From assembly GCA_009729775.1 (NCBI GenBank), contig GCA_009729775.1_4081.1: 64,000 bases of DNA, one strand, 5' to 3'. This stretch comes from Escherichia coli (GTDB lineage: Bacteria > Pseudomonadota > Gammaproteobacteria > Enterobacterales > Enterobacteriaceae). Shown one piece after another: positions 8,601 through 60,929 of the stretch (its first letter is position 1; every line of letters begins with the position of its first letter). The notes below the pieces were generated by a model. The model saw only the letters and a list, made by a program, of their open reading frames with translations. It made no database searches and was not told where the DNA came from. A program made the translations under genes and the position numbers.

Positions 8601-11600
8601 AATATGATAGTTCAACTGATAGTTATGTGACAAAATACTATTTCTGGGTACGTGATACAATTTATGTACCACCACTACATACCAGAACAAAATCATGTAC
8701 TGACATTGCTCGTATTATTAAAGATCCAACACAGCTAAACATTCCTTGGTTCGCTCCAATCAATGAAAACTCGTTTATTCTTAGTAATATGCAATTTAAA
8801 GTGAATGATGATACCAGTATTTTAACTGTTTCTTATTACATGGATAGTACTGAAGTTGTTAAACATGACCAGTATCAACTATGTAAAGAAGGTGACAGCT
8901 ATAACTTTAACCCACTAATTTGGGATTCAATGTGGAACTCACTAATTGGTCAAGAAACAACTGAATCAGGTTCTGTGATTAATTTATTATATCCAGATGT
9001 TGATAACGGTTTAGGTTCAAACAAAACTTGGTTCCAAAATGTTATAGAAGCTCGTAGAAACTTTGTAGAAAGTGCTAATAATTATTATAGGTCACAAAAC
9101 ATAACCACTAATAGTGTTGTTATGGAAGATGTGTTTAATGTTAAAACCACTGAAGTTAACCCGAATGAAGTTTCTTTCCGTGTATTGTCTTACAATAATG
9201 AATTAGTTATTGCAGTTGAAAGTGATAAATTTAAAGAAAATGACGCTGTTATTTTAAGTACTAGTGGATATCTACCAAATCCATTAACTTCTAGTGCTGT
9301 TTATTTTATTCACTTCGACGAAAATGGATATATTCAGTTAATGAATAGTCCAGCAAACGCGGGTAGTGTTGTTACTATAACGTTAGAGAACAAAGGTGAG
9401 GGACAACATAAAATGATTAAACAATCTGATTATGTTGAATCACTAGGAACTTCATTGGACATGACTCAGTACTGGTCATATGCTGATTGGTATGATGTTG
9501 GGTATGATAGTAACACGACTTATACTCAAGAGTCAAGCTTAGAAGATGCTAATACTAAAAACTACCAAGTTGGCGATATTATCAGAGTTACCGATAGTGA
9601 AAACATTTGGACATTGTATATTAAATCACAATCACGCGATTCAATTTATTGGAAAGCGATTGGTCGTGAAAACAGTACAGTTGAACTCAATGATATGCTT
9701 TACGCAGATTATAGTGTTCATAATGATAATGGTTCACTAAGCAATCGTGAAATCAACGTTCGTAAAGCACTAGCTTTACTCAAAAATTCTTTCGATTTAC
9801 ATCAAAGCGAAATTGTTTTTGATATGGTCAAATATGTACATGTTGAACAAAGTGTTGTGGATTGGGTATTTAAAACATCATATATCTATATTGTTGGTTT
9901 GGAACAATCATTAGTTCAAAACTATTCAAACGATAATTTGATTAATCAAATTGTTGAATATTTTGAAGAAGTTAAACCTTATAGAACTAAAATTCGTTCA
10001 CAAATAGAGCAAAAGACATCTGATGATGATTTAATAAAAGGTCTATGTAATGATTTAGATCCTAATGGATATATTTTCGTTGACGGTTCTTGGATCAAAA
10101 CTGAAAAAGATATTTGGGATTATGAGTACGCTCAATTTAATGAAATTACCCAAAAATGGGAACAGGTAGGTTCACTACCAAGTGATTTCGTTACACCAAA
10201 TAGAAGATTCCAAGAAATTGATATTATTATGCATTATGATAATATTCAGTGTAAACCAAATGAAGATTTGGCAAGCATAAATGAATTAGTAAGTGTTAAT
10301 AACAAATATCAATCCAATGAAAAGGATGCTGTTAGTAACTATGAATTACAACGTTATATATATTCTTTCCCAGAATATAGTGAAGAAACTTTCGATCTTC
10401 TTATTGCTTATCAAATGCAAATCTACTATCCAGAATTGGATGTAACACTAGGAACAGCATATGGCGTTAACCAGTGGTATAAAGACCATGCGGAAGATTT
10501 AGAAGCAACTGATGAATTTACTGCTACATTGGAGCGTGTTTATAAAGAATCAACGCAGAACGATATGTTTACTGACCTTAGACAATATGTTCAGTATAAC
10601 ACATTGGCAAACCGTTTGAAACTTTATAAAGATATAAGTGATGAGAAAATTCACGATGAAGTTGGTTGTGGATTTAGTGGACTTACCTATAATGACAATC
10701 CTAGTACTAGACTTCCATTAGGCTTTTCTTCTAGTAATGATTATAACTATGGATATTTTGAAATAAGCAGTGAACTGTATCAAAAATATATTTCATTAAT
10801 TAAAGATAAAAATCCTGACGCATCAGACTATGAAGTAAAAGTTAAACTTGAAGTTGAGTATGGTGTATATGTTTATCGTTATGATGAAGTAGGTGGTGAT
10901 ACCCGTTTCTATACTGATGCTATTCACGTATTAGCAGGTATGAGAGGGTTATTCGACAAAGACGCTACTGATAAGTACGAAAAAGCTGAAGAGATTCTTA
11001 GTAAGACCCCAATTGATATCTATGCAATTACAATGATTCCACGAAAATATGTTTACTTAAATGTTAACGGTGTATATCAAAGTATACCTGATGAACAAAG
11101 TATTGATGATTTCATGGAAGATTATTTTATCACAAATGGTGAAATGATTGAACTAGCTGAAATAAATCTAGATGATTTACCACTAGATCAAAATAATCCA
11201 ATGTATTCTGATTATCAATATATACTTGATAGTATTACTGAAGCTAAGTACTTCAATGATATGAATGCATTTGATAACCTAGCATTGGAATCTCAAACTT
11301 CTTCAATAAAATGGGAAGTTAAAGATGATGAAGTTGATCCTTATATTGTGGATATATCTGACATAAACCCTTCTGGGCGTGATGTTGGTCAAATTAGATT
11401 TACAGTTGATGGATATGGGTTTGACAATGTATCTCTTGTACAATTACGTGATAACAGCAGATATCAAACTGAAGGTATGGCAATTATCAATCCATATAAA
11501 CATACAGAAGCAATTGTTAGTATTCCTTCATATGCTAAGATTGAAAATGATATTAATAAAACAACATCGAAGTTTGATGAAAAATATTTCTATCGTGTGA

Positions 11601-17957: not shown

Positions 17958-18422
17958 ATGAATGAAGCGGTTGGTGCTATATTTTTATCAAAAAGTACTG
18001 GACATATGATGTTAAACTTGCGTTCTGAAAGAAGTACCTATTCTAACAACTGGGCATTTGTTGGTGGAAAGCTTGAACATAACGAAACACCACTACAAGG
18101 TCTGATGCGAGAAATTAAAGAAGAGTTGGGCAACTCAATACCTAACATTATTGATATTATACCGTTTGATGTATTTTGTACAAAAAATGGTAAATTTAAA
18201 TATTATTCATTTGTTATTGTAGTTGAGAATGAATTTGTACCAACTTTAAATCATGAAAGCTCTGGTTATGCTTGGGTTAGAATTGGTTCTTGGCCTAAAC
18301 CATTACACCCTGGTGCTAAAAATACTTTACTTAACACAAACTTAATGAAAGATTTTTACTCACTATGGGAAAGTATACGTGAAGGTACACAGTTTGTCAA
18401 CAGTTTACCATATAGATATTAA
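17958..18422 (+). CDS. Nudix hydrolase
   Basis: Nudix box GGKLEHNETPLQGLMREIKEELG (Gx5Ex7REUxEExGU); AAGGAGG SD. Confidence 0.75.
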   Translation: MNEAVGAIFLSKSTGHMMLNLRSERSTYSNNWAFVGGKLEHNETPLQGLMREIKEELGNSIPNIIDIIPFDVFCTKNGKFKYYSFVIVVENEFVPTLNHESSGYAWVRIGSWPKPLHPGAKNTLLNTNLMKDFYSLWESIREGTQFVNSLPYRY

Positions 18423-25112: not shown

Positions 25113-28100
25113 ATGTACTCAATAAAAACTGACTTAGATATTACTGGTGCTGGTACGGTTGGTAAGGATCTTTTAGTCAAAGGAAATGCTGTTTTCAACA
25201 ATAACCTAACTGTAAATGGTACTGTAACTTTTGCAAATGCAACTTTTACTGCCATTGAATCATCAACTGCCAATATTACATCTACTTTAGATGTAGGTGG
25301 CAAAGCAACACTTTCTGGTGGTCTTGGTGTTGAGGGTAATACTACAATCGGTAGTGCAGTGGTCGGGTCTGATACAGCAACAATTAATTCAAACGCTACC
25401 TTTAACGGTACTGTATCAGTTGGTTCTGATTTTACACAAACTGCTGGTACAACCACTCTACAAGCAACTAAAGTTAAAAACTTAGAAGTTGCTGAAACAA
25501 CAGCATTTAAAGGTAATATTACTGCTGATGTTGGGACTACTGCTGCATTTGATAAAGTTACTGCTAATACCGCAGAAATTACTAATGTAAGTACAACAGA
25601 TATTAGTAGTACTGGTACTGCTACATTTAAAGATGTGACAATTAGTGGTACACTTGGTGGTGAGTTTAATCTATCTGACTTAAATGCAGTAACATTGAAC
25701 GTTACTGGTGCATCTAACCAACAAGGTGCAGTAACTTTCGGTGCTAACGTAACTGGTATTAACAGTACTGCTACTTTTAAAGACATTCGTATTGGTTCTA
25801 ACTCTGAATCACAAACCTTCAGATTAAGCTTCCCTTACACTGCTCCTGGTAAACGCCCAACTGTTATTCTACAAAACGAAATTCAGTCCGAGCTAATGTC
25901 ACCTGCAAACTTGACAGTATTGACCTCTGCTTCTTTTGGTAATGCGTCATTATCTTCTTATGGTATTACTGGTAATGGTCTAAACAAATTAGATTATCTA
26001 ACAGTTTCTGGTAACAATACACAATCACCAGACACACCACTATTAGAAGTTCAAAAAGGCAAAACTAAAGTTGCGGACTTTGAAGTAACCGGAACTGCAA
26101 CTATTCCAAATATCGAAAGTACTGGTACTGCTAATTTTAATAACATTAATGTTTCTGGTCTTCTTGGTGGAACGTTCCAACTAGACGATATCAATGCAGT
26201 ATCTTTGAACGTTACTGGTGTAACTTCATTAGTTGGTGGTGTTACTCTTGGTTCTAATATTACTGGTTATAACAGTACTGCATCCTTTAAAGCTATCAGC
26301 TTAGGTCAAAATAGTCAAGATGCGGCAGTGAAACTAGGTTTTGGATATACTGCACCAGGTCAACGCCCAACAGTTATTCTACCTAACGAAGTTCAATCAG
26401 AAGTCGTTTCTCCTTCTACATTGAACGTTCTTAAAACAGCAACTTTCGGTAACGCTTCTCTTTCCACTTATGGTATTACTGGTAACGGTCTAAACAAACT
26501 AGATTACCTAACTATTACTGGTAACGAAACACAAGCTCCAGGTACACCATTCCTACAAGTTGGTGGTAAAGCAATTCTTAATGATGTTGAATTTACTGGA
26601 ACAGTAACTGGACTAACTGTTGATGTTAGTGGTCAGGATCTAACACCTAATTCTGTTGTCGCGGCAGCAAATATTAAAGGTGCAACACTTGAAAGTACTG
26701 GTAACACTACCGTGGGTGCTAAACTAACTGTTACTGGTGATATTGCTGGTACAACTGCAACTCTTTCTGGTGCATTATCCGCTGGTTCAGTAAGTTCTGG
26801 TTCTATTACTGGTACAACTTCTGTATCTGCACCAACAATTAGTGCATCTACTGAAGTAACGGCTCCTACTATCACTGCGAGTGGAACTGTAAGTGGACAA
26901 ACAATTAACGGTACTAATATTAGTGCAACAACTCTGACTGCACCAACTATTAGTGGTAATACTAACTTCACAGAAAATGTTGATATTACTGGAAATCTAA
27001 CAGTTACTGGTACAGTAACCCCAGGTACAATTGATTTGAGTACTACTGATGTTAGTGCGAAATCAATCACTACTACCGCTGGTGCAAATATTGGTGGAGA
27101 TCTTGTGGTTCAAGGTTCTTTTGATTTATCAGCAGCAGACATTAACGTTAAATCACTAACTTCTTCTGGTATTGTTAAAAGTAATGACCTTGTTAATGCT
27201 AACGTACTTCCTGTACTTAATAGTACTACCATAACGGCAACTACTGTTAATGCTGATGATATAACTGTTACCGGATCTGCTAATTTGGGTACAATTTACT
27301 CAAGCTCATCTGTTCTAGTTGGGTCAACTTTAACTGTAACTGGTGAAACTACAACTGCATCGTTGGTTACCCCAACCATTTCAAATGCAAGTGGTGTCAC
27401 TATTTCCAATAATACAAATGTAACTGGTGACCTAACCGTTACTGGTGCAGTTATTCCAGGCTCTATCGATCTAGCAACAACTGATGTTAATGCTAAATCC
27501 ATTACTACTACTTCTGGTGCAACTATTGGTGGTAACCTAACTGTTAATGGTACAGTAGATCTTACTACTGCTGATGTTACTGTCAAATCTTTAACTAGTT
27601 CTGGTGCAATTGTTAGTAATGAATCTACAATTAGTAGTGTTCTACCTAAACTTCAAAGTACTGATGCAACTATTGCAACCCTTGGTTCAACAACTGCAAA
27701 TATTACTAATTTGAATGTTACTGGTGCATCTACCGTAGCTGACGTAACTTCTTCAGGTAAAGTTAAAGCAGTTTCTGTAGAAACCCCAACAATTAGTAAC
27801 GTTGATGGTGTATCTATTTCCAATAATACATCTATTACTGGTGACCTAACAGTTTCTGGTACAGTAACACCAGGTGCAATTGATTTGAGCACAACTGATG
27901 TAAGTGCAAAATCCATTACTACTACCGCTGGAGCAAATATTGGTGGAGATCTTGTTGTTTCTGGTACAGTTGATTTAAGTGGTGCTGATGTATCTGTTAA
28001 ATCTCTAACAAGTACTGGTATTATTACAGTTAGTAGTGCAGAAGGTATCAACGTTCTACCTAAAGTTCAAAGTACTGAAGTTACAGTGTCTGCTCTAAAT

Positions 28101-30992
28101 GCAACAAATGCAGTAGTTTCTGGTGATGTTTCAGCAGCAACAGCTTCAATCTCAGGTGCAATTACTGGTGGGTCAGCAACACTATCTGGTGTTGGAACTG
28201 CTCTAAATGTAACTAATAACGCAACTGTTGGTGGTGTACTTACTGTTGGTTCTATTACTTCAGCGGCAGAAAATGTATCCATTACTAAAAATACCGCGAT
28301 TACTGGTAATTTAGCAGTATCTGGAACACTAACTGCGGGTGTTATTGATCTTAGCACAACTGATGTGTCTGTGAAGACATTAACTTCGCTAGGTGATGCA
28401 ACCGTTCAAGGTAACTTAACTGTTGATGGTTCTATTGACCTAAGTTCTGCAAACATCGTCGGTGTAACACTAGAAAGTACTGGCTCTACCACTGTAGGTA
28501 CTGATTTGATTCTAACTACAGGTAACATTACAGGTAGTCCATCTATTTCTGGTAACTTGGGTGTAACTGGAACCACAACGTTAACTGGTGCAACTACAGT
28601 TTCAAATACATTGAATACTGCTGGTAAACTAACAGTTAATACTGGTGGTATTCAAGTAGTTGGTGGTGGTATCCAAGTTGATGCAGGAACTATTACCGCA
28701 CCAAGTGCTAATATTTCTGGTGACTCTACCCTTAATAGTGCAACTGTAACTACTACCCTTGGTGTTACTGGTGCAGCTAGTATGAATGGTGGCCTTACTG
28801 CATCTACCCTAGATGTAACTGGTGACAGTACTGTACAAAAACTAACTGTTAAGGGTGCATTTATTCCTGAAGGTGGTTTGGACCTATCTGGTGCTGATCT
28901 TAACGTGAATAGCGTATCTGCTGCAACCACATTAAGTGTTACTGGTGCTAGTACTCTAACTGGTGGCGTTTCCACTTCAACTGTTACTGCATCCGGTAAG
29001 GTAACCGCACAAGAATTAAGTACTGGTACATTGGCAGTAACCACAAATGGAACAGTTGGTGGTACTTTAGATGTAACTGGAAAGGCAACAGTCGGTTCTC
29101 TTGATTCAGGTGCAATATCTGCAACTTCTGGTACATTTAGTACTACACTAGGTGTAACTGGTGTAGCAACATTTGGTAACAATGTTAATATTACTGGCAC
29201 GTTAACTCCAGGTGCATTGGATTTATCTAGTACTGATGTAGATGCTAACAGTCTTTCTGTTGCAACAACCCTACATTCAAACGGCAATGCAACAATTGGT
29301 GGTACACTAGGTGTAACAGGTGCAGCAACTGCTCCATCAATAGCTCTTAATGGTGAAGGAACTGCATTAGCAGTTACTAACAATGCAACAATTGGTGGCA
29401 CACTAGGTGTAACTGGAAAGGCAACAGTCGGTTCACTAGATTCAGGTGCGGTATCTGCAACTTCTGGTACATTTAGTACTACAATAGATGTAACAGGTGT
29501 AGCAACCTTTGGGAATAATGTTAACATTACTGGTACATTAACTCCAGGTGCATTGGATTTATCTAGTACTGATGTTGTTGCAAACAGTCTTTCTGTTGCA
29601 ACCACACTACATTCAGATGGTAATGCAACAATTGGTGGTACATTAGGTGTAACTGGTGCAGCAACTGCTCCATCAATCACTCTTAATGGTGAAGGAACTG
29701 CATTAGCAGTTACTAACAATGCAACAATTGGTGGTACACTAGGTGTAACTGGTGCAGCAACTTTAGGTTCACTAACAACTTCTGGTGCAGTGAAAACTGG
29801 TTCTAATGTTATTATTGGTACTAAGATCGGTGAACAACCAGAAACAGTTCAGATTTTCCCTAACACTTACATCGCAGGTTCCTTGCGTGTAGACGGTGGT
29901 ATCAACGCTGATATCGATGTTAGTGGTCAAACGATCGAACCATATGCGGTTGTTGCTGCTGATACTATTAGTGCAGCAGGTAATATCACATCTGGTGCAG
30001 AATTGATTTCTAAATCTGCAACTATTGGTGATGTTGGTTCACAAAACAACAACTTAACCATCAATGGTAACGTAGTTAACAATGGTAACTTTACAGTAAC
30101 GGGTGTTCTAAACGCAACGCTAAACCAAGCTAACTCTGATGTGGCTGTTAAATCTTTAACTGCAACTAACAGTGTTGCTGCTGGTACTAGTATTACCGCA
30201 GGAACAAGCATTACTGCAACTGGTTTACTAAAAGGTAACACTCTTGAAGTAACCACTACTGGTTCATTCGGTGGTGCAGTTACTATGTCAAGTGGTGCGA
30301 ATATCACAGGAACTGTTGGTATTACTTCTGGTAACCTAACTGTCGGTGGTGATATTTCTGCAACTGGTACTGCTACCCTTGCTGCTACTTCTGTGACTAC
30401 AATTACTACTTCTGGTGCTGCTACTCTTGCTAGTGCATCTGTAACTGGTGCAGCAACCGTAGGTGGTACTTTAACTGTTACTGGTTTAATGACTGCAAAT
30501 GGTAGTGTTGTTCTAGGTGACGCTGCTGCTGATACATTAACTGTCAATGCAACATCTTCTTTCAAAGAAAATGCAGTATTTGATAAAGATGTAACTGTAA
30601 CTGGTCAATTAACAACTACTAATGCTGACCTAACTACTACAACAGTAACTACTAAAAAATATGATGTTATTCCTAATCAAGTAACTTCTTCTGTTATCGC
30701 ACCAACTGGTACTTGGACCCCAGACGGTACTAGCAACGTATACTTTATCACTCTAGATCAAGATACAACTCTAGCACCAATCACTGGTCTAATCGGGGGT
30801 GGTAAAGCATCTTCAGTATACATTTATGTTAAACAAGATGCAACAGGTAATAGAAACTTTACTACTGATGGTACTTATGCGGTTGTTGATGGTACACTGA
30901 ACAAAACTGCAAACTCTGTAACTATCTACCAAGTCATTTATGACGGTGTGAGTCCAGTAACAGATATGTTTATTGCACAACGTACTGCTTAA
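25113..30992 (+). CDS. giant repetitive tail fibre protein (1959 aa, Thr/Gly/Val/Ser-rich beta-repeat)
   Basis: GGAGGG SD. Multiple internal repeat families, including four ~65-aa modules (xTGDLTVTG...IDLSTTDVSAKSITTT...) and a near-identical tandem 112-aa duplication. Confidence 0.85.
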   Translation: MYSIKTDLDITGAGTVGKDLLVKGNAVFNNNLTVNGTVTFANATFTAIESSTANITSTLDVGGKATLSGGLGVEGNTTIGSAVVGSDTATINSNATFNGTVSVGSDFTQTAGTTTLQATKVKNLEVAETTAFKGNITADVGTTAAFDKVTANTAEITNVSTTDISSTGTATFKDVTISGTLGGEFNLSDLNAVTLNVTGASNQQGAVTFGANVTGINSTATFKDIRIGSNSESQTFRLSFPYTAPGKRPTVILQNEIQSELMSPANLTVLTSASFGNASLSSYGITGNGLNKLDYLTVSGNNTQSPDTPLLEVQKGKTKVADFEVTGTATIPNIESTGTANFNNINVSGLLGGTFQLDDINAVSLNVTGVTSLVGGVTLGSNITGYNSTASFKAISLGQNSQDAAVKLGFGYTAPGQRPTVILPNEVQSEVVSPSTLNVLKTATFGNASLSTYGITGNGLNKLDYLTITGNETQAPGTPFLQVGGKAILNDVEFTGTVTGLTVDVSGQDLTPNSVVAAANIKGATLESTGNTTVGAKLTVTGDIAGTTATLSGALSAGSVSSGSITGTTSVSAPTISASTEVTAPTITASGTVSGQTINGTNISATTLTAPTISGNTNFTENVDITGNLTVTGTVTPGTIDLSTTDVSAKSITTTAGANIGGDLVVQGSFDLSAADINVKSLTSSGIVKSNDLVNANVLPVLNSTTITATTVNADDITVTGSANLGTIYSSSSVLVGSTLTVTGETTTASLVTPTISNASGVTISNNTNVTGDLTVTGAVIPGSIDLATTDVNAKSITTTSGATIGGNLTVNGTVDLTTADVTVKSLTSSGAIVSNESTISSVLPKLQSTDATIATLGSTTANITNLNVTGASTVADVTSSGKVKAVSVETPTISNVDGVSISNNTSITGDLTVSGTVTPGAIDLSTTDVSAKSITTTAGANIGGDLVVSGTVDLSGADVSVKSLTSTGIITVSSAEGINVLPKVQSTEVTVSALNATNAVVSGDVSAATASISGAITGGSATLSGVGTALNVTNNATVGGVLTVGSITSAAENVSITKNTAITGNLAVSGTLTAGVIDLSTTDVSVKTLTSLGDATVQGNLTVDGSIDLSSANIVGVTLESTGSTTVGTDLILTTGNITGSPSISGNLGVTGTTTLTGATTVSNTLNTAGKLTVNTGGIQVVGGGIQVDAGTITAPSANISGDSTLNSATVTTTLGVTGAASMNGGLTASTLDVTGDSTVQKLTVKGAFIPEGGLDLSGADLNVNSVSAATTLSVTGASTLTGGVSTSTVTASGKVTAQELSTGTLAVTTNGTVGGTLDVTGKATVGSLDSGAISATSGTFSTTLGVTGVATFGNNVNITGTLTPGALDLSSTDVDANSLSVATTLHSNGNATIGGTLGVTGAATAPSIALNGEGTALAVTNNATIGGTLGVTGKATVGSLDSGAVSATSGTFSTTIDVTGVATFGNNVNITGTLTPGALDLSSTDVVANSLSVATTLHSDGNATIGGTLGVTGAATAPSITLNGEGTALAVTNNATIGGTLGVTGAATLGSLTTSGAVKTGSNVIIGTKIGEQPETVQIFPNTYIAGSLRVDGGINADIDVSGQTIEPYAVVAADTISAAGNITSGAELISKSATIGDVGSQNNNLTINGNVVNNGNFTVTGVLNATLNQANSDVAVKSLTATNSVAAGTSITAGTSITATGLLKGNTLEVTTTGSFGGAVTMSSGANITGTVGITSGNLTVGGDISATGTATLAATSVTTITTSGAATLASASVTGAATVGGTLTVTGLMTANGSVVLGDAAADTLTVNATSSFKENAVFDKDVTVTGQLTTTNADLTTTTVTTKKYDVIPNQVTSSVIAPTGTWTPDGTSNVYFITLDQDTTLAPITGLIGGGKASSVYIYVKQDATGNRNFTTDGTYAVVDGTLNKTANSVTIYQVIYDGVSPVTDMFIAQRTA
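29076..29747 (+). repeat. near-identical tandem duplication (2 x 336 bp) inside the fibre gene
   Basis: Two consecutive in-frame 112-aa units (KATVGSLDSGA...NATIGGTLGVTG) differing at only a few positions; period 336 bp. Confidence 0.8.
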
Positions 30993-53617: not shown

Positions 53618-53836
53618 TTATTTTGAATTATACAAGCAGTACAGGTATACCAATGGAGTAAAATGTTCGGAATCTATTATATATATTAACTGAGTAACAT
53701 ATATTCCATATAGATCTCGTGATTTATCTCTGTACATTAACAATGATTTATTTAAGTAAGGATCAACCCAGTACTTAATATCATTGTACTTCAACGTGTT
53801 GTTACGGTAACCTGATAGTTTTGAATTTTTATTCAA
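53618..53836 (-). CDS. hypothetical small protein
   Basis: 72 aa; 8-nt overlap with the upstream gene. Confidence 0.5.
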   Translation of the reverse strand: MNKNSKLSGYRNNTLKYNDIKYWVDPYLNKSLLMYRDKSRDLYGIYVTQLIYIIDSEHFTPLVYLYCLYNSK

Positions 53837-54206
53837 TTTTCTTACAATTACTCAGTAAGTGAATGATATCATCAGCAGTGAATGGTCCCAATACCAGAAC
53901 TTCTTCACCATTACCGAAAATGCTCAATGGCACTGATTGTTGACCAGCTAGATATTCAATTTGTTCCAGTTCGAAAATGTCATCAGCAGCATATACTACC
54001 TGCTCCATTTCATTATCTTTAATCCATGACTGCCAATGTTCTTTAAACTTCTTAGCTTCGTATTCTTGAACATAGTTAGGTGATTCAGGGTTGTATTGAT
54101 GTAACATAGTCATCCCAGCCATTACTAATTCTTTAGGGGATGGTGTAGAATCTTTCAGTACTACGATAGCTTGGATAGTTTTTACTTTAACGTCATTAGC
54201 AGCCAT
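53829..54206 (-). CDS. peptidyl-tRNA hydrolase PTH2-like protein
   Basis: N-terminal VKTIQAIVVLKDSTPSPKELVMAGMTMLHQY and C-terminal EEVLVLGPFTADDIIHLLSN resemble the Pth2 fold signature (VVVR.DL.M..GK.AAQ..HA / TVLA.GP...LID.VTGHLKL). Confidence 0.45.
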   Translation of the reverse strand: MAANDVKVKTIQAIVVLKDSTPSPKELVMAGMTMLHQYNPESPNYVQEYEAKKFKEHWQSWIKDNEMEQVVYAADDIFELEQIEYLAGQQSVPLSIFGNGEEVLVLGPFTADDIIHLLSNCKKIE

Positions 54207-54546: not shown

Positions 54547-55023
54547 TTATTTTAGAATGTATAAGTGTTTTTCTGCATTGACCAGACGGTGATCAATGAT
54601 TTCTTTGATAACGTTCCAGTTACCGCCGCCCAAATCGGCTCCAATTTTCGGGAAATGTACATGAACATCTCGATCAACTTTACAAAAATAATTTAGATGT
54701 TTGAACACATCGTCAATTGCATCATAACTGACATATTTAGCACCGTCATTACCGTACATTTTTTGGGTAATACAGTTTGCAATAATCAAATTATCGTTAA
54801 TTGCTGAATATGCAATTTGTCCAATTCTAAGAAATCCCATTTCCTTTTCATATGCTTTATAATCATCATATGCCATTGGATAACGATTTCTTAGTTCTTT
54901 TGCAAAACCTGAACCCATTTTACCCTGTGCGTTACAACCATGAGCAATTATATGTAATGCATTTTGATCATCGGTAACAGTACTGAACAATTCAAACAGA
55001 TTACCTCTGTGTTCATGTATCAT
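54547..55023 (-). CDS. macrodomain protein (TARG1/OARD1-like ADP-ribosyl hydrolase)
   Basis: ALHIIAHGCNAQGKMGSGFAKELRNRYP and FPKIGADLGGGNW match the TARG1-type motifs (AHCISEDCRMGAGIA ... PRIGCGLDRLQW). Confidence 0.75.
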   Translation of the reverse strand: MIHEHRGNLFELFSTVTDDQNALHIIAHGCNAQGKMGSGFAKELRNRYPMAYDDYKAYEKEMGFLRIGQIAYSAINDNLIIANCITQKMYGNDGAKYVSYDAIDDVFKHLNYFCKVDRDVHVHFPKIGADLGGGNWNVIKEIIDHRLVNAEKHLYILK

Positions 55024-55033
55024 TATATTCTCC

Positions 55034-55063
55034 GAAAAGAAAGGACTCTTTTACAGAGTCCTT
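55034..55063 (-). terminator. terminator/attenuator hairpin upstream of the macrodomain gene
   Basis: AAGGACTCT-tttac-AGAGTCCTT stem followed on the minus strand by UCUUUUC, then GGAGAA SD and ATG. Confidence 0.45.
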
Positions 55064-55071
55064 ATTTTAAA

Positions 55072-55314
55072 TTATTCTTCTTCACCGAAACGGATTTTCT
55101 TTAATTCTTTTCGATGCTTTCTAGCTATTGTACTTTTGTGAAGTCTATTACTGCGTTTTGTGTCTTTTGTAATGTACCATGAATCTTCTGGTGCATCATA
55201 ATCACAAAATCCATCTTCCGTAATTGTTCCTAAAAATGCAGATTTTTTAGGAATATTAGTTTGAGCTTTAGCCTGAAATTGACCTTTTGCTAATTGTTCA
55301 CGAAAACTGAGCAT
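55072..55314 (-). CDS. hypothetical small basic protein
   Basis: ORF track start is TTG 55329; the ATG at 55314 (MLSFREQ...) follows GGGAGA by 7 nt. Confidence 0.5.
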   Translation of the reverse strand: MLSFREQLAKGQFQAKAQTNIPKKSAFLGTITEDGFCDYDAPEDSWYITKDTKRSNRLHKSTIARKHRKELKKIRFGEEE

Positions 55315-55360
55315 AATAGTATCTCCCAAATTGTTAAGAAGAACTTTTTGTTCTTCACAT

Positions 55361-55603
55361 TTATTTAGGGTTGCCAGAAACCTTCACATATTTGATAAAT
55401 GCCAAAATATCATCTTTACTAAAAGATTTTACAATAAATTCGACAGCCGAATCATACTGTTCTTGTTTAGATAGATATTCTTTCATTTTGTTAATTTTAA
55501 TCTGGGCTTTTTCTTTAGCTATTGAAATATCAGGAATTTTGAACTCTACTCCCAACGTATCAGCTAGTTGTTTTGCACGAGATGATACTTTTTCAATATC
55601 CAT
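55361..55603 (-). CDS. hypothetical small protein
   Basis: ORF track start is TTG 55612; the ATG at 55603 forms a TAATG stop/start overlap with the glutaredoxin gene. Confidence 0.55.
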   Translation of the reverse strand: MDIEKVSSRAKQLADTLGVEFKIPDISIAKEKAQIKINKMKEYLSKQEQYDSAVEFIVKSFSKDDILAFIKYVKVSGNPK

Positions 55604-55851
55604 TAGTTCCAACGACCTTCTTTAAGACCTTCAATAAATCCAGTACAACCACCTGGTACATAAATGTCATTTACGAAAATTTGAGGAACTTGACGAACTG
55701 GTTCACCACAAATTTCAGACAGTTTTGAACCATCGATACCTTCAGCAACAATATCTACAAACTCCATTTCAAATTTATTTTGTTCACATACAGCTTTTGC
55801 AGTGTCGCAAAATTTACAACCAGTCTTGCGACCATAAATTTTAACTTTCAT
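55603..55851 (-). CDS. glutaredoxin (T4 NrdC-like)
   Basis: 82 aa; CxxC active site in IYGRKTGCKFCDTAKAV; resembles T4 NrdC (CVYCDNAK). Confidence 0.75.
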   Translation of the reverse strand: MKVKIYGRKTGCKFCDTAKAVCEQNKFEMEFVDIVAEGIDGSKLSEICGEPVRQVPQIFVNDIYVPGGCTGFIEGLKEGRWN

Positions 55852-55852
55852 G

Positions 55853-56251
55853 TTATTTCCTTCTATTTCTTTGAAAAGCTTTAACAGCTTTAATAATACT
55901 GTTACACATTCGTTCAGTCAAATACTTTTGACATTCTCGTACATCAATGTACATGAACTTATCCAATTCTGGATGACTCTTACCATATCTATTAGTGTAA
56001 GTACTTTTACAAACTAATTCATCTGGTATTGGTTTGTCTTTGGCAGTATAAAAGAAAAGTACTAACCTTTTTCCCTTTCTATAGGATACATCACCAAGAA
56101 ACAGAAGATCATCTTCATCGATTTCGTATCCTGTCTCTTCGAAACATTCACGTACAGCAGCTTCTTTGAAAGTTTCATTACCCTCAGCTTTCCCTTTAGG
56201 TAAATCCCAATGATTCTGTCCGTGTTGTATGTCCGATAAGTATCTGACCAT
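55853..56251 (-). CDS. Nudix hydrolase
   Basis: Nudix box GKAEGNETFKEAAVRECFEETGYEI. ORF track begins with GTG 56254; ATG at 56251. An extended -10 (TGgTATAAT) lies ~12 nt upstream, suggesting a near-leaderless mRNA. Confidence 0.75.
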   Translation of the reverse strand: MVRYLSDIQHGQNHWDLPKGKAEGNETFKEAAVRECFEETGYEIDEDDLLFLGDVSYRKGKRLVLFFYTAKDKPIPDELVCKSTYTNRYGKSHPELDKFMYIDVRECQKYLTERMCNSIIKAVKAFQRNRRK

Positions 56252-56362
56252 CACGATAAAATATTATACCACAACTATAACGCATATCTTATCTCTTTGT
56301 CATCAATCGATGTTCAGATACTAATAATTATATCAGTTATTGGTTTTTTGTCCCACTATTTT

Positions 56363-57475
56363 TTAGAACATTTGTTTGATTGCTTCGTAACGAAGTTCAC
56401 AAACAAAATCACGAATTTCTGACGTTTCAAGTTCACCATCTTTGACCATTTGCTGAATATCAGGCAATTCAACATCAGTATAACGATCATAAACTTTAAT
56501 AATTAGATCTTCAAGTTCTAAATCAATTTCTTTTCGCAAAATGAAGTATTCCAAAACTTTATAAAGGAATTCTTCACCTCCGTTATTTTTAATATTCATA
56601 TCCAATAAAATATTACCCATTTCAATAGGGGTCTTTTTACGGAATGTTTTGATATCATCACGGAAACGTTTGATATAATTACTAAATTTAACATACTTAA
56701 CTGGAACTTTAATAGCACCGTTAAGTACTGAATCATTATTTACTTCTTCATTTTCAAGAAGAATAGACCACAGAAAATATGGTTTATATACATCCGTACA
56801 GTTCTCTGCAATATAATCAATAAGGTCTAAATTCTTTTTGGTCAAAGATGTATTAAACACCTTTTCGTAATAACCAAATTTACTTAGCGTCTTAAGGAAC
56901 TTTGCAGGCTTTTCTTCGGAAAATGCTTTTTCGAATTCCACAAAAACACGGTCAGGAACAAGATGATTTAGTTCACCACTATTGACCATTCCAATAGCGA
57001 GTTCCTCAGTGCTTTCATGGATAGTAAAGTCTGAATAACGAGTAGCAAATCGAGCAAGACGTAACACGCGTAATGGATCTTCTTTAAAATGGTCAGAAAC
57101 ATGACGTAGTATCTTGTTCTTGATATCAGCTTTACCACCGTATGGATCGATGTGAATTTGTAGTACTGGATCATACGCAATTGCATTAATTGTAAGGTCA
57201 CGGCGATACAAATCTTGTTCTAGTGTTACGCCTTTTGTATCCACTTCAAAGCCACCATATCCAGTACCAGTTTTACGCTCAGTACGGGCTAATGCGTGTT
57301 CATTACCTTCTGGACTTAGATATACTGGGAAATCCTTACCTACTTGCTTATAGCCAATACTTTGCAAGTACTTAAGATCAGATTCGGATGCACCAACAAT
57401 GACATAATCTTTGTCTTTTGCACGGATGCCCATTAAACGGTCACGGACGTAACCGCCAACCAAATACTTTTTCAT
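56363..57475 (-). CDS. cca: CCA-adding tRNA nucleotidyltransferase (class II head domain)
   Basis: MKKYLVGGYVRDRLMGIRAKDKDYVIVGAS parallels E. coli Cca MKIYLVGGAVRDALLG...DRDWVVVG; the RRDLTINA motif is present. At 370 aa it is shorter than E. coli Cca, so an HD domain is probably absent. Confidence 0.85.
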   Translation of the reverse strand: MKKYLVGGYVRDRLMGIRAKDKDYVIVGASESDLKYLQSIGYKQVGKDFPVYLSPEGNEHALARTERKTGTGYGGFEVDTKGVTLEQDLYRRDLTINAIAYDPVLQIHIDPYGGKADIKNKILRHVSDHFKEDPLRVLRLARFATRYSDFTIHESTEELAIGMVNSGELNHLVPDRVFVEFEKAFSEEKPAKFLKTLSKFGYYEKVFNTSLTKKNLDLIDYIAENCTDVYKPYFLWSILLENEEVNNDSVLNGAIKVPVKYVKFSNYIKRFRDDIKTFRKKTPIEMGNILLDMNIKNNGGEEFLYKVLEYFILRKEIDLELEDLIIKVYDRYTDVELPDIQQMVKDGELETSEIRDFVCELRYEAIKQMF

Positions 57476-57610: not shown

Positions 57611-58033
57611 TTAAATTAATCTATCACGTAGACGGTCGTAATATTTTTTGTGTATAGCTAGTATACACTGATATGCAGAATAGTCAATACCAAATGTATC
57701 ATCAATGAACATGTACTGATCAAGTGTTTCCGGTCCATTATCATCAACTGGTAATGTCCCTTCTTTTTTTGATAGTGTGTGCCACATCAACTCACTTTCA
57801 ATATGGTGAGTTGCGTATGTCAATTCTATCTTACTTTTTCGTAGTAAAATTAACAATTCATCATTGTCGTCGAGTGCATTACGAAATTTAATACGAACTG
57901 TACCCTGGAAATTATTAGTGTACATAACACGATGATGATTGTATGAAATCAAACCACGTCTTTCAGTACTGATTTCGTGTTCAGCAAAGTACTTTAACGT
58001 TTCATTAAATTTTGGAATTTTAGTAACGTCCAA
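57611..58033 (-). CDS. hypothetical protein, paralogue B
   Basis: C-terminal EGTLPVDDNGPETLDQYMFIDDTFGIDYSAYQ is paralogous to the upstream gene; apparent TTG start behind GAGGA, overlapping the upstream gene by 14 nt. Confidence 0.6.
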   Translation of the reverse strand: MDVTKIPKFNETLKYFAEHEISTERRGLISYNHHRVMYTNNFQGTVRIKFRNALDDNDELLILLRKSKIELTYATHHIESELMWHTLSKKEGTLPVDDNGPETLDQYMFIDDTFGIDYSAYQCILAIHKKYYDRLRDRLI

Positions 58034-58436
58034 TCACATAATCCTCATAAAGTTCGTATACCCTCATTATACTCTGATATGTATCAAAGTCAATACCAAA
58101 GGTATCCTCAATGAACTGATATTGCAAAAACTCTTCCTCTGTAGCAGCAATAGGAAGAGTCCCGTTTCGTTGTTCTGTGGATTGAACATCCTCAATATAC
58201 ATCAACACTATACCTTCATCCAGATTTATATCTATCATAAAAACATCTTCACTATAAAATATGTTATATGTACGGATGAAGAGATTTCCTGTTCTATCAT
58301 AACTTGACACGTGTGTTTCATAATACATTTTATCTAAACTAAAGAACAAACCTGTACTATCTGGCTTTTTAGTATTTTTTAATTTAATTTCGATAGCATC
58401 AATAATAGGTTTAATATCAAATTTTTTCATAGACAA
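58020..58436 (-). CDS. hypothetical protein, paralogue A
   Basis: NGTLPIAATEEEFLQYQFIEDTFGIDFDTYQ; 138 aa. Confidence 0.6.
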   Translation of the reverse strand: MSMKKFDIKPIIDAIEIKLKNTKKPDSTGLFFSLDKMYYETHVSSYDRTGNLFIRTYNIFYSEDVFMIDINLDEGIVLMYIEDVQSTEQRNGTLPIAATEEEFLQYQFIEDTFGIDFDTYQSIMRVYELYEDYVIGRY

Positions 58437-59074: not shown

Positions 59075-59407
59075 TTACTCTTCGTTTTCTGTCAAATCAT
59101 CAAGAACTGGGTGTTCTGGATGGTTTCGGCGGTGTAATTTAATGCTTTTGTCTTTACTGAATACAGTTTCCATTTTTTCAAATGAATCACCAATTGCTTT
59201 GTATAAATCTGCTGCATCGGCAGTAACTGATTTACTACCTGATGTTAGAGTCACAGAGTATTGAGACTTATGCTCTTTCTTCACATGAACTTCAATATCC
59301 ATTACAGTTGAAGTACGGAACTTTTCAAGACATTTAGCACCATCGTAAATTGCATCTTGAATTGCTGTAGTAAAATCAACATTACCTTGAATATTTAATT
59401 TTAGCAT
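59075..59407 (-). CDS. hpf: ribosome hibernation promoting factor (HPF/RaiA/YfiA family)
   Basis: MLKLNIQGNVDFTTAIQDAIYDGAKCLEKF... aligns with E. coli HPF MQLNITGNNVEITEALREFVTAKFAKLEQYF and the C-terminal LYKAIGDSFEKMETVFSKDK with DMYAAIDGLIDKLARQLTKHK; AAGGTAGG SD. Confidence 0.75.
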   Translation of the reverse strand: MLKLNIQGNVDFTTAIQDAIYDGAKCLEKFRTSTVMDIEVHVKKEHKSQYSVTLTSGSKSVTADAADLYKAIGDSFEKMETVFSKDKSIKLHRRNHPEHPVLDDLTENEE

Positions 59408-59423
59408 AATTTACCTACCTTTT

Positions 59424-60383
59424 TTAGAGTGAACTTAACAACAAATCTGCTCGGTTTGTAACTTGACGATACCATAAGGAATTCATTATTTCTTTTTTAA
59501 ATTTCTTAGGGTTATCATTTTTTACACTGTTCCAAAGTTTATTAAACGAAGCTAACTTATCTACTCCCATTGTATAGCACATTTCAAAAAGAATACGTTG
59601 TTGTTCTTTGGTCAGATTTACTGCTTGTTTTTTCTGCATCAATAATAAAAAGTCATCATATGTTCTTTTCATATCTTGCATTAAAAGTTTGTTGGCTTGA
59701 GCTTTGGTAATACCGTTTCTGTACTTGATAGCATCAGATTCTTTTCTTCCCAAATAATGCCCATAACCGATTGTATAATTACCTTTCATATCCTTGTAAG
59801 GATGAAATTTAGAATTGTGGAAAGGAACTCCGACTTTCCCACCAAGTAAACGGCGTTTGTTCTTGGACTGAAATTCAATTGAACCTTCAGCTTCTTTGAT
59901 GTGATTGACAATTTCTGGATCATTATAATCAAACTGTACAGTCACATCTGGTAACAATACGTTCTTCAAATCCTCTTTTGTTGGGATAAAGATACCCTGA
60001 GAAGTATGAAGAGTAGCATTTAAATTGATATTTTTCAACAAAATAACATACTCTTCAAGTTGTACATTTTTAGGTTTAAACTTTTTAGCAATAGAATAAT
60101 AACTATCACCAGGTTGAACCGTATAATGCTTCTCGCCGCGTGGAACATCCTTTGATATTTCTACCTTTGGTAATTCCTGCTTTTGAATTTGCGTAACTTG
60201 TGGTTTTAAATTGTGTACCTGACTTTCGTCCGATGATGATACACGATCATTTTGAGAAAAACCATAAAATCCAATCGCAGCGACAAGTACTGTGCAAACT
60301 AGAACACCATAAGTAGTCTTAGTTTTCAGTGCTTTTTTCGCTTGTTTCAAAACGCCTCCTTTGTTGATTGTTAAGATGGGCAA
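59424..60383 (-). CDS. membrane-anchored lysozyme: signal-anchor + LysM + GH24 (T4 lysozyme-like) domain
   Basis: GNYTIGYGHYLG and SLWYRQVTNRADLL parallel T4 lysozyme YTIGIGHLL and SRWYNQTPNRAKRV; LysM-like YTVQPGDSYYSIAKKF; N-terminal TM helix YGVLVCTVLVAAIGFYGF. No ATG before residue ~200; candidate starts are the TTG at 60383 or the TTG at 60350, which lies 4 nt after AAAGGAGG. Confidence 0.85.
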   Translation of the reverse strand: MPILTINKGGVLKQAKKALKTKTTYGVLVCTVLVAAIGFYGFSQNDRVSSSDESQVHNLKPQVTQIQKQELPKVEISKDVPRGEKHYTVQPGDSYYSIAKKFKPKNVQLEEYVILLKNINLNATLHTSQGIFIPTKEDLKNVLLPDVTVQFDYNDPEIVNHIKEAEGSIEFQSKNKRRLLGGKVGVPFHNSKFHPYKDMKGNYTIGYGHYLGRKESDAIKYRNGITKAQANKLLMQDMKRTYDDFLLLMQKKQAVNLTKEQQRILFEMCYTMGVDKLASFNKLWNSVKNDNPKKFKKEIMNSLWYRQVTNRADLLLSSL

Positions 60384-60518: not shown

Positions 60519-60929
60519 TTAATCGTAGTAGGTTCTACCTACAGTTATGTGATATTTAAAGTACTTGGTTGGTAGTCCTAGTTCATTTCTAATATGTGTG
60601 ATGAAATCATCTTCAAATTCAATGATAAAGAATGAACCTGGATTCTTTTTATCTTTTACTATCTCAATACAAGGATTGAACTTTATCTTTACTTTCATTC
60701 CATCGTATTTTTTCCAGAACTCTTCATGTGGTGGTACTTCACCACGCACTATACTAACATGTGCTCCCCATTGAGGATCTTTAACGTCAATATGTAAATC
60801 AGTTCTGATGAAGTACTGGTAGTATCTAACCAACTGTAATGGAAGTTGCAGTACTAACCAGAAGTCCTTCTTCTTTTTCATAGTGCCACGGTCTGGATCA
60901 TACACCAGAGTTCCTTCCATTTCAATCAT
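60519..60929 (-). CDS. 2H phosphoesterase (LigT/Acb1-like cyclic phosphodiesterase fold)
   Basis: Two H-x-[ST]-x motifs about 70 aa apart (GAHVSIVRG and KYHITVGR), the hallmark of the 2H superfamily; 136 aa. Confidence 0.5.
   Translation of the reverse strand: MIEMEGTLVYDPDRGTMKKKKDFWLVLQLPLQLVRYYQYFIRTDLHIDVKDPQWGAHVSIVRGEVPPHEEFWKKYDGMKVKIKFNPCIEIVKDKKNPGSFFIIEFEDDFITHIRNELGLPTKYFKYHITVGRTYYD

What the first reader, a model, noticed from the sequence alone, without database searches (positions are those of the whole stretch)
54547..55023. TARG1-type macrodomain: candidate eraser of defensive ADP-ribosylation
Motifs HGCNAQGKMGSGFA and PKIGADLGGGNW match the TARG1/OARD1 macrodomain class that removes ADP-ribose from modified substrates. 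Host systems such as DarT ADP-ribosylate phage DNA, so a phage macrodomain would plausibly reverse this or hydrolyse ADP-ribose-derived signals.
Basis: partly seen in the sequence, partly recalled or inferred. Interest (0 to 1): 0.6.

Follow-up and report, generated by a model that had tools for sequence, protein, structure and literature searches.

The report
Jumbo-phage macrodomain, likely anti-DarT eraser

Summary
The ORF exists exactly at 54547-55023, on the minus strand, and carries both quoted motifs. The window is 99.6% identical to Escherichia phage 121Q, where the gene (gp544) is already annotated as a macro domain / Appr-1-p processing protein.

- **Not TARG1-like in chemistry.** The TARG1 Lys84/Asp125 dyad is replaced by Gln87 and Gly132. 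This is the "Gln-type" site of SCO6735, which cleaves thymine-linked ADP-ribose from DNA.
- **Closest phage relative.** T4 Tk.4 has the same motifs (hhalign 99.6%, 30% identity). A 2025 preprint renamed it AdfM because its knockout sensitises T4 to DarTG2.
- **Most likely role.** Erasing DarT2-type ADP-ribose marks from phage DNA. This rests on homology and was not tested here.
- **One oddity.** The near-universal phosphate-loop glycine is Asp130 here and non-Gly in all close relatives. SCO6735 G128E loses most of its activity at the equivalent site.

Novelty is low: a new member of a known kind. Interest is about 0.3.

The parts
54547..55023 (-). Macrodomain CDS (158 aa plus TAA stop); equals Escherichia phage 121Q gp544
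54901..54942 (-). Loop-1 / Gly-rich motif H28-G-C-N31-AQGKMGSGFA41. H28, G29, N31 and G39 are invariant in the family. N31 corresponds to SCO6735 Asn27, which locks the catalytic Gln; H28 corresponds to His24; S38 sits where SCO6735 has the DNA-positioning Lys34.
   Evidence: Invariant columns. Residue mapping to SCO6735 from the HMMER alignment and hmmalign. Mutant data from PMC9411070.
54763..54765 (-). Gln87 codon (CAA), in the motif I-T-Q. This is the position of catalytic Lys84 in TARG1 and Lys80 in DarG, and of the essential Gln85 in SCO6735.
   Evidence: Q in 118 of 118 homologues. Alignment with TARG1, DarG, PhiKZ AdfM (Lys) and SCO6735, BT1257, T4 Tk.4 (Gln). SCO6735 Q85A is inactive.
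54616..54651 (-). Phosphate-binding loop P125-K-I-G128-A-D130-L-G132-G-G-N-W136. G128 and G133 are invariant. D130 (GAT, 54634-54636) occupies the position of the conserved Gly128 of SCO6735 / Gly123 of TARG1. G132 occupies the position of TARG1 Asp125.
   Evidence: SCO6735 G128E loses most activity. Position 130 is D in 41, G in 55, A in 9, V in 8, E in 3 of 118 homologues, and non-Gly in every relative at 58% identity or more.
55030..55033 (-). Shine-Dalgarno GGAG, 6 nt upstream of the ATG
   Evidence: Read directly from the sequence.
55041..55063 (-). 9-bp stem-loop followed by a T-rich tail, between the stop of the upstream ORF (55072-55329) and the macro ribosome-binding site. It looks like a terminator, but there is no room for a promoter after it, so it is probably a leaky terminator or an RNA-stabilising hairpin within one transcript.
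   Evidence: Terminator scan and sequence. Function not tested.

Best explanation
The gene encodes a stand-alone, single-domain ADP-ribosyl hydrolase of the ALC1/TARG1-like macrodomain class. It belongs to the 'Gln-type' branch with SCO6735, BT1257 and T4 Tk.4.

Its most likely job is counter-defence. When a host DarT2-type toxin ADP-ribosylates thymines in single-stranded phage DNA and blocks replication, the enzyme binds the ADP-ribose in its cleft and releases free ADP-ribose, restoring the base.

By analogy with SCO6735:
- The Gly-rich loop (aa 34-39) and the phosphate loop (aa 128-134) hold the ADP-ribose.
- Gln87, held in place by Asn31, positions the distal ribose.
- Hydrolysis goes through an activated water rather than a lysine nucleophile.
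- Uracil-linked ADP-ribose on RNA is a plausible second substrate.

Shown here: the fold, the class, the conserved active-site residues, and homology to T4 Tk.4. Inferred: the substrate and the biological role.
For: - Active site: H28, G29, N31, Q87 and G128 are invariant in 118 of 118 homologues. They map to SCO6735 His24, position 25, Asn27, Gln85 and Gly126. Q85A and N27S abolish or nearly abolish SCO6735 activity on T-ADPr DNA (PMC9411070).
- SCO6735 removes DarT-made thymidine-linked ADP-ribose and rescues E. coli from DarT. It also reverses U-ADPr on RNA (PMC13036486).
- T4 Tk.4 shares the motifs IAHGCN, MGSG[FV]A, TQ and P[KR]IGA.[LI]G.GNW. BLASTP gives 30% identity over 123 aa, E 2e-12; hhalign gives 99.6%, E 2.3e-24. 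Its best PDB hit is also BT1257, and it falls in the same PHROG 335.
- Transposon insertions in tk.4 are depleted on a DarTG2 host, and a clean knockout sensitises T4 to DarTG2 (bioRxiv 10.1101/2025.11.20.689424).
- A second, more distant phage macrodomain, PhiKZ gp104 AdfM, removes DarT2 marks from DNA in vitro (PMC13309987). So the strategy is established in phages.
- The host is E. coli, where DarTG2 systems act against phages.
Against: - No experiment exists on this protein or on any Asteriusvirus.
- Identity to T4 Tk.4 is only 30%, and to SCO6735 28%.
- Asp130 sits where SCO6735 G128E causes a substantial loss of activity, attributed by those authors to loop rigidity and repulsion of DNA.
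- SCO6735 Lys34, whose K34E mutant is almost dead on DNA, corresponds to Ser38 here. The SCO6735 Lys89 position is Met89.
- The protein is slightly acidic (pI 6.5) against 9.6 for the SCO6735 fragment. However, both validated phage AdfMs are acidic too.
- The neighbourhood is a conserved block of tRNA, nucleotide and virion genes, not a recognisable anti-defence island.
- Macrodomains of this class are promiscuous: protein Glu-ADPr, OAADPr and Appr1p are all known substrates.
Confidence: 0.55

Rival explanations
1. It is a hydrolase of small ADP-ribose derivatives rather than of modified DNA. Candidates are an ADP-ribose-1''-phosphate phosphatase (Poa1p-like) clearing by-products of RNA/tRNA repair, an O-acetyl-ADP-ribose deacetylase, or a degrader of ADP-ribose-derived immune signals or toxins.
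For: - The historical annotations are 'Appr-1-p processing' and 'phosphatase'.
- The conserved neighbourhood holds a CCA-adding enzyme, a NUDIX hydrolase and a glutaredoxin.
- A probable 2H phosphoesterase lies 5.5 kb upstream. 2H enzymes make Appr1p from Appr>p.
- Iyer et al. argue that phage Macro, NADAR and Nudix domains mainly target low-molecular-weight ADPr derivatives (PMC9503650; PMC7824862).
Against: - The only genetic result for a family member, T4 Tk.4, points to DarTG2.
- The nearest biochemically characterised relative acts on base-linked ADPr in nucleic acids.
- No KptA/Tpt1, Sir2, TIR or ART domain was seen among the Pfam hits in the 64-kb window.
- The NUDIX neighbour matches only the generic Nudix box, with no ADP-ribose pyrophosphatase signature.
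Confidence: 0.2
2. It is a protein mono-ADP-ribosyl hydrolase. It would either reverse host ART modifications of phage proteins, or tune ADP-ribosylation by the phage's own transferases.
For: - SCO6735 and TARG1 remove Glu-linked ADP-ribose from proteins.
- Myoviruses that carry Macro domains often also carry ARTs (PMC9503650).
Against: - No ART was found in the window. The rest of the genome could not be searched.
- T4 carries Alt, ModA and ModB, yet its Tk.4 phenotype is specific to DarTG2.
- In SCO6735 the Gln is needed for both substrates, so the residues do not discriminate between them.
Confidence: 0.1
3. It is a weakened or non-catalytic ADP-ribose binder, or a DarT-binding inhibitor. 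Loss of the conserved phosphate-loop glycine (Asp130) has crippled hydrolysis, and the protein works by sequestration or by blocking the toxin.
For: - SCO6735 G128E loses most of its activity.
- Catalytically dead SCO6735 Q85A still inhibits DarT by direct interaction.
- ICP1 AdfB neutralises DarT, likely through direct interaction (PMC11481870).
Against: - Every other catalytic or positioning residue (H28, N31, Q87, G128, G133) is invariant in 118 of 118 homologues, including all Asp130 members. That is unexpected for a dead enzyme.
- Position 130 varies among D, A, E, Y and V in this family and is always paired with Gly132: 63 of 63 non-Gly members have G132, Fisher p = 3e-6, not corrected for phylogeny. 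This suggests a loop that tolerates a side chain there.
- The validated PhiKZ AdfM has Ala at this position.
Confidence: 0.08

Closest known systems
T4 Tk.4 = AdfM(T4), anti-DarTG2 macrodomain (bioRxiv 10.1101/2025.11.20.689424)
   Same: Both are stand-alone phage macrodomains of about 155 aa. They share the signature IAHGCN, MGSG[FV]A, TQ and P[KR]IGA.[LI]G.GNW. Both are Gln-type, both have BT1257 as best PDB hit, and both fall in PHROG 335. hhalign gives 99.6%.
   Different: Identity is only 30%. Tk.4 keeps the canonical Gly in the phosphate loop (GAGIG) where this protein has Asp (GADLG). Tk.4 has a mobile loop 4 residues shorter. The genomic contexts differ: tk/vs/regB in T4, against the CCA/NUDIX/neck module here.
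Streptomyces coelicolor SCO6735 (PDB 5E3B) and Bacteroides BT1257 (PDB 2FG1/2AFC)
   Different: They are bacterial and basic proteins. Several SCO6735 residues differ here: Val25 is Gly29, Lys34 is Ser38, Gly128 is Asp130, and WGKG is MGSG.
Chimallivirus AdfM (PhiKZ gp104) and bacterial DarG2 macrodomains
   Same: Same class of fold. A phage-encoded eraser of DarT2 marks has been demonstrated biochemically for gp104. hhalign gives 98.3%.
   Different: These are Lys-type (FPTK). gp104 scores 137.8 bits on the DarG NCBIfam model against 32.9 for this protein. BLASTP aligns only 26 residues. DarG2 also has a C-terminal DarT-binding domain that is absent here.
Human TARG1/OARD1
   Different: The catalytic dyad Lys84/Asp125 corresponds to Gln87/Gly132. 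TARG1 is the most distant of the class members, at 20% identity.
Yeast Poa1p (ADP-ribose-1''-phosphate phosphatase, PDB 6LFQ)
   Different: It is larger (about 180 aa). By single-sequence search only the N-terminal half aligns. It is a small-molecule phosphatase rather than a nucleic-acid eraser.

Membership tests
Macrodomain superfamily (Pfam PF01661 clan) | Three-layer alpha/beta/alpha fold with a mixed six-stranded sheet, superposable on solved macrodomains | tested here: met
Macrodomain superfamily (Pfam PF01661 clan) | Score above the Pfam gathering threshold | tested here: not met
   16.4 bits against a cut-off of 22, E 0.009. Many homologues do carry a precomputed PF01661 hit, so this reflects divergence, not absence of the domain.
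Macrodomain superfamily (Pfam PF01661 clan) | ADP-ribose-binding loops: Asn in loop 1, a Gly-rich loop, and a G-x-G phosphate loop | tested here: inconclusive
   N31, G34, G37, G39, G128 and G133 are present, and mostly invariant. The second Gly of the G-x-G is Asp130. ADP-ribose binding itself was not tested.
ALC1/TARG1-like macrodomain class | Closer in sequence and structure to TARG1, DarG, SCO6735 and Poa1p than to MacroD, macroH2A, PARG or viral types | tested here: met
TARG1/OARD1 orthologues | Catalytic Lys84 | tested here: not met
   It aligns with Gln87, which is invariant in the family. The TARG1 sequence was verified against PDB.
TARG1/OARD1 orthologues | Catalytic Asp125 | tested here: not met
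   It aligns with Gly132.
Gln-type branch (SCO6735 / BT1257) | Gln at the catalytic-Lys position, held by the loop-1 Asn, with His two residues before the Cys-Asn | tested here: met
   Q87, N31 and H28 are each present in 118 of 118 homologues. Mapping; functional data.
Gln-type branch (SCO6735 / BT1257) | Val/Ile25, whose backbone carbonyl holds the proposed catalytic water (described as SCO6735-specific) | tested here: not met
   It is Gly29 here, invariant in the phage family. The proposed role is for the backbone, so the consequence is unknown.
Gln-type branch (SCO6735 / BT1257) | DNA-positioning Lys34, and Lys89 in a long mobile loop | tested here: not met
   These are Ser38 and Met89 at the aligned positions. 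Lys35, Lys88 and Lys96 lie nearby and could substitute. Not testable here.
Gln-type branch (SCO6735 / BT1257) | Gly128 in the phosphate-binding loop | tested here: not met
   It is Asp130 here. In the family the position is D in 41, G in 55, A in 9, V in 8 and E in 3 homologues.
Phage AdfM, T4 Tk.4 type (anti-DarTG2 factor) | Sequence homology to T4 Tk.4 with shared motifs | tested here: met
   BLASTP E 2e-12, 30% identity. hhalign 99.6%, E 2.3e-24. Same PHROG 335. A tk.4 structure ranks among the top BFVD fold hits.
Phage AdfM, T4 Tk.4 type (anti-DarTG2 factor) | Confers phage resistance to DarTG2 / removes T-linked ADP-ribose from DNA | not testable with these tools
   This needs plaque assays or in vitro de-ADP-ribosylation. 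It is known only for T4 Tk.4, by genetics.
DarG2 antitoxin / PhiKZ-type AdfM | Catalytic Lys80 (FPTK motif) | tested here: not met
   The motif here is ITQ.
DarG2 antitoxin / PhiKZ-type AdfM | NCBIfam NF048014 score above the cut-off, and a C-terminal DarT-binding domain | tested here: not met
   32.9 bits against a cut-off of 250, covering only model positions 18-139. The protein is a single domain of 158 aa.
Poa1p-type Appr1p phosphatase | Phosphatase activity on ADP-ribose-1''-phosphate | not testable with these tools

The most novel reading that the evidence does not exclude
Replacement of the near-universal phosphate-loop glycine by Asp (or Ala, Glu, Tyr) in the whole enterobacterial Rak2/121Q-like jumbo-phage subclade, always with Gly132, might mark a re-tuned active site. 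Its preferred substrate would not be the DarT2 thymine adduct. It could be another defensive ADP-ribose linkage currently regarded as irreversible, such as CmdT adenine-N6 marks on mRNA, or a soluble ADP-ribose derivative. Asp130 might serve as the general base that SCO6735 lacks.
Probability: 0.12. Interest if true: 0.6.

Novelty: new member of a known kind. Interest (0 to 1): 0.3.

Why it matters
If the assignment is right, 121Q-type jumbo coliphages carry a ready-made eraser of DarT2 DNA ADP-ribosylation. These phages are of interest for phage therapy against STEC, APEC and UPEC. An eraser would help predict their host range on DarTG2-positive E. coli.

It would also extend the newly recognised AdfM strategy from T4-like and nucleus-forming phages to a third large phage lineage.

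The Asp130 variant offers a natural test of how far the phosphate-binding loop of Gln-type macrodomains can change while activity is kept.

Beyond that the finding is confirmatory. Macro domains are reported in 56% of jumbo phages (PMC9503650), and the gene was already annotated.

Tried and rejected
- **Chance ORF or wrong frame:** rejected.
- **Strict TARG1 orthology:** rejected because the catalytic dyad is absent.
- **Direct orthology with the biochemically validated PhiKZ AdfM or DarG2:** rejected. It is Gln-type, not Lys-type; BLAST aligns only 26 residues; and it scores 32.9 bits against 137.8 on the DarG model.
- **NUDIX neighbour as a dedicated ADP-ribose pyrophosphatase partner:** not supported. 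Only generic Nudix-box matches were found.
- **Own promoter for the gene:** the sigma-70 scan is no better than shuffled sequence, with 19 sites found against 20.4 expected.
- **Flanking small ORFs:** four have no Pfam hit, and those with a PHROG match fall in PHROGs of unknown function.
- **Virion packaging:** the phAPEC6 proteome paper does not mention the protein.
- **Asteriusvirus literature:** no data on DarTG2 sensitivity or on this gene.
- **Whole-genome search for NADAR (AdfN-like), Alt/Mod-like ARTs or a second macrodomain:** I fetched a near-identical unannotated genome (L005-L012) and the T4 reference genes (L013, L014). These loci were never exported to the Python sandbox, so the search could not be run. 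Only the 64-kb window was inventoried.
- **Supplementary tables of PMC9503650:** not held.

Full report
**Observation.** The ORF is real and the coordinates are exact. The ORF listing reports 54547..55023 on the minus strand, 158 aa, with an ATG start. The plus-strand frame is broken by stops. The minus-strand translation contains both quoted motifs, HGCNAQGKMGSGFA at residues 28-41 and PKIGADLGGGNW at residues 125-136. A GGAG Shine-Dalgarno lies 6 nt before the ATG. A 9-bp hairpin with a T-rich tail (55041-55063) sits between the upstream ORF's stop and that ribosome-binding site. A sigma-70 promoter scan of the region is no better than shuffled sequence. The gene is therefore probably read through from upstream as part of the long run of minus-strand genes.

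**Where it comes from.** The 3 kb around the gene is 99.6% identical to Escherichia phage 121Q and 99% or more to 17 other Asteriusvirus-type jumbo coliphages of about 350 kb. In those records the gene is already annotated: 'Appr-1-p processing domain protein' or 'macro domain-containing protein' (121Q gp544), 'Macro domain protein' (slurp01, Sharanji), or 'phosphatase' (Pharokka/PHROG-based records). tblastn finds homologues in 1,785 phage records, including T4-like, FelixO1-like, rV5-like, Pakpunavirus and Streptomyces phages. A published survey found Macro domains in 56% of jumbo phages and 41% of myoviruses (PMC9503650). The presence of a macrodomain here is therefore ordinary.

**What fold and class.**
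- Pfam Macro is sub-threshold for this sequence, at 16.4 bits against a cut-off of 22. PHROG 335 matches at 1e-45.
- phmmer against PDB gives BT1257 1.3e-15, SCO6735 1.6e-11, Poa1p 2.7e-6 and DarG 0.0045.
- I aligned 62 homologues from the 5.8-billion-protein collection. The profile ranks PDB chains as BT1257 1.5e-26, SCO6735 2.3e-20, Poa1p 3e-16, DarG 3.5e-15 and TARG1 9.5e-11. ALC1 scores 0.017, and MacroD-type and viral macrodomains 0.004 or worse.
- AlphaFold2 on that alignment gives pLDDT 95.1 and pTM 0.91, with the expected alternating strand and helix pattern.
- Foldseek reproduces the order, with TM 0.84 to 2FG1.
- Against viral predicted structures the top hits are phage macro proteins, including a tk.4 product of a T4-like Acinetobacter phage.

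TARG1 itself is the most distant member of that class.

**Active site.** I aligned this protein to the family HMM together with T4 Tk.4, PhiKZ gp104, BT1257, SCO6735, two DarG macrodomains and human TARG1.
- The catalytic lysine of TARG1 (K84), DarG (K80) and PhiKZ gp104 aligns with Gln in SCO6735 (Q85), BT1257, T4 Tk.4 and this protein (Q87).
- TARG1 Asp125 aligns with Gly132.
- Across 118 full-length homologues, H28, G29, N31, Q87 and G128 are invariant.
- The SCO6735 study (PMC9411070) shows that Q85A is dead and N27S nearly dead. It proposes a water-mediated mechanism in which Gln85, locked by Asn27, positions the distal ribose. These residues map to Q87 and N31 here.

There are also differences from SCO6735. 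Val25 is Gly29; Lys34 (K34E is nearly dead on DNA) is Ser38; the Lys89 position is Met89; and Gly128 (G128E loses most activity) is Asp130.

**The Asp130 oddity.** Position 130 is D in 41, G in 55, A in 9, V in 8, E in 3, Y in 1 and T in 1 of the 118 homologues. Every relative at 58% identity or more is non-Gly, and most distant ones are Gly. All 63 non-Gly members have Gly at 132. Among the Gly130 members, 15 of 55 have Ala132 (Fisher p = 3e-6, not corrected for phylogeny). The validated PhiKZ AdfM has Ala at the equivalent position. My reading is that the loop has changed in this family so that it tolerates a side chain there, rather than that the enzyme is inactivated. I could not inspect the model coordinates, so whether Asp130 contacts the ligand is unknown.

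**Related phage proteins with known function.** Two different phage macrodomains have been named AdfM.
1. PhiKZ gp104 and its chimallivirus relatives remove DarT2-made ADP-ribose from DNA and protect against DarTG2 (PMC13309987). I fetched gp104. It is a Lys-type DarG2-like domain, matching DarG at E 1e-24 and scoring 137.8 bits on the DarG NCBIfam model. It is only distantly related to this protein: a 26-residue BLAST patch and hhalign 98.3%.
2. T4 tk.4 was the single significant hit in a transposon screen on a DarTG2 host, and a clean knockout sensitises T4 to DarTG2 (bioRxiv 10.1101/2025.11.20.689424). I fetched T4 tk.4. It is Gln-type and shares the motifs IAHGCN, MGSGVA, YTQ and PRIGAGIGKGNW. 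It aligns at 30% identity over 123 residues, E 2e-12, and matches the family profile at 99.6%, E 2.3e-24. Its best PDB hit is BT1257, and it scores 30.3 bits on the DarG model against 32.9 for this protein.

On the family HMM the scores in bits are BT1257 92, Tk.4 84.5, SCO6735 73, DarG 53-57, PhiKZ AdfM 52 and TARG1 45. This protein therefore belongs with T4 Tk.4, BT1257 and SCO6735, not with DarG or PhiKZ AdfM.

**Substrate range of the nearest characterised enzyme.** SCO6735 cleaves thymidine-linked ADP-ribose on DNA, rescues E. coli from DarT, removes Glu-linked ADP-ribose from protein, and inhibits DarT even when catalytically dead. It reverses uracil-linked ADP-ribose on RNA (PMC13036486). 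It does not act on 2'-OH RNA ADP-ribosylation (PMC11833690).

**Context.**
- All neighbours are on the minus strand. Upstream are two small ORFs with no Pfam hit and unknown-function PHROGs, then a glutaredoxin (55603-55851), a NUDIX hydrolase (55853-56254) and a CCA-adding enzyme (56363-57475).
- Downstream are three small ORFs with no Pfam hit (two in unknown-function PHROGs, one with no PHROG hit), then the neck protein gp13 homologue (named from the syntenic XaC1 gene), an 89-aa ORF in an unknown-function PHROG, dNMP kinase and the tail sheath.
- The order CCA, NUDIX, Grx, macro, gp13, DNMK, sheath is kept in Xanthomonas jumbo phage XaC1, whose macrodomain is 45% identical. This is an old conserved block, not a mobile anti-defence island.
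- The NUDIX matches only the generic Nudix box.
- A Pfam scan of the remaining ORFs in the window showed no ART, NADAR, Sir2 or KptA domain among the hits listed.
- The scan did reveal a probable minimal 2H phosphoesterase at 60522-60929: PF22547 at 26 bits against a cut-off of 27, with two H-x-S/T motifs. This keeps the small-molecule reading (Appr>p to Appr1p to ADP-ribose) alive as a rival.

**Conclusion.**

| Explanation | Confidence |
|---|---|
| Active Gln-type ADP-ribosyl hydrolase that erases DarT2-type thymine adducts from phage DNA, as inferred for T4 Tk.4 and shown for SCO6735 | about 0.55 |
| Hydrolase of small ADP-ribose derivatives | 0.2 |
| Protein de-mono-ADP-ribosylase | 0.1 |
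| Weakened binder or DarT inhibitor | 0.08 |

- The fold, the class, the conserved catalytic residues and the homology to Tk.4 are shown here. The substrate and the biological role are inferred.
The 'TARG1-type' label fails at the catalytic dyad, and the novelty was overestimated.
- The gene is already annotated as a macrodomain. Phage macrodomains are well surveyed, and two phage AdfM families were published in 2025-2026.
- It is best filed as a new, untested member of a known kind, with a mildly interesting variant phosphate loop.

Noticed in passing
window 60522-60929 (-): A 136-aa ORF in PHROG 12204 (unknown function) gives a borderline Pfam hit to the 2H-SAK 2H-phosphoesterase domain (26 bits against a cut-off of 27). 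It carries two H-x-S/T motifs, HVSI at residue 57 and HITV at residue 127. It is probably a minimal 2H phosphoesterase: either an Acb1-like degrader of cyclic-nucleotide immune signals or an Appr>p / 2',3'-cyclic phosphodiesterase. It has no PDB sequence match.
   Followed up: partly
window 17958-18419 (+) and 55853-56254 (-): The window holds two separate NUDIX-domain ORFs, with Nudix boxes GKLEHNETPLQGLMREIKEE and GKAEGNETFKEAAVRECFEE. The one next to the macro gene has no specific subfamily assignment.
   Followed up: partly
window 59078-59407 (-) and 59424-60383 (-): A ribosome hibernation-factor-like ORF (Ribosomal_S30AE, E 4e-9) lies next to a LysM plus phage-lysozyme protein. The same pair sits upstream of the CCA enzyme in Xanthomonas phage XaC1.
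   Followed up: no
window 57611-58033 (-) and 58020-58436 (-): Two adjacent ORFs both match PHROG 20693 (unknown function) at E below 1e-55. They are a tandem pair of paralogues just upstream of the CCA-adding enzyme.
   Followed up: no
window 55041-55063: A perfect 9-bp hairpin (AAGGACTCT...AGAGTCCTT) with T-rich tails on both strands lies immediately upstream of the macro ribosome-binding site. It is a terminator-like element inside what otherwise looks like one transcription unit.
   Followed up: partly
window 2675-12673 (+) and 25113-30989 (+): Two giant ORFs of 3,333 and 1,959 aa occupy the plus-strand part of the window. Other Pfam hits in the window include a ClpB-like AAA ATPase, DUF2201 metallopeptidase/VWA, a TnsA-like endonuclease, thymidylate synthase and a tail-needle knob. 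None was assigned to an individual ORF.
   Followed up: no
L004 6091-6489 (Xanthomonas phage XaC1): In XaC1 the ORF two genes downstream of the macro gene has a weak PTH2 (peptidyl-tRNA hydrolase) hit. The ORF in the corresponding position of the window (53829-54206) has no Pfam hit and falls in PHROG 14786, of unknown function.
   Followed up: no
This prevented a local whole-genome search.
   Followed up: yes
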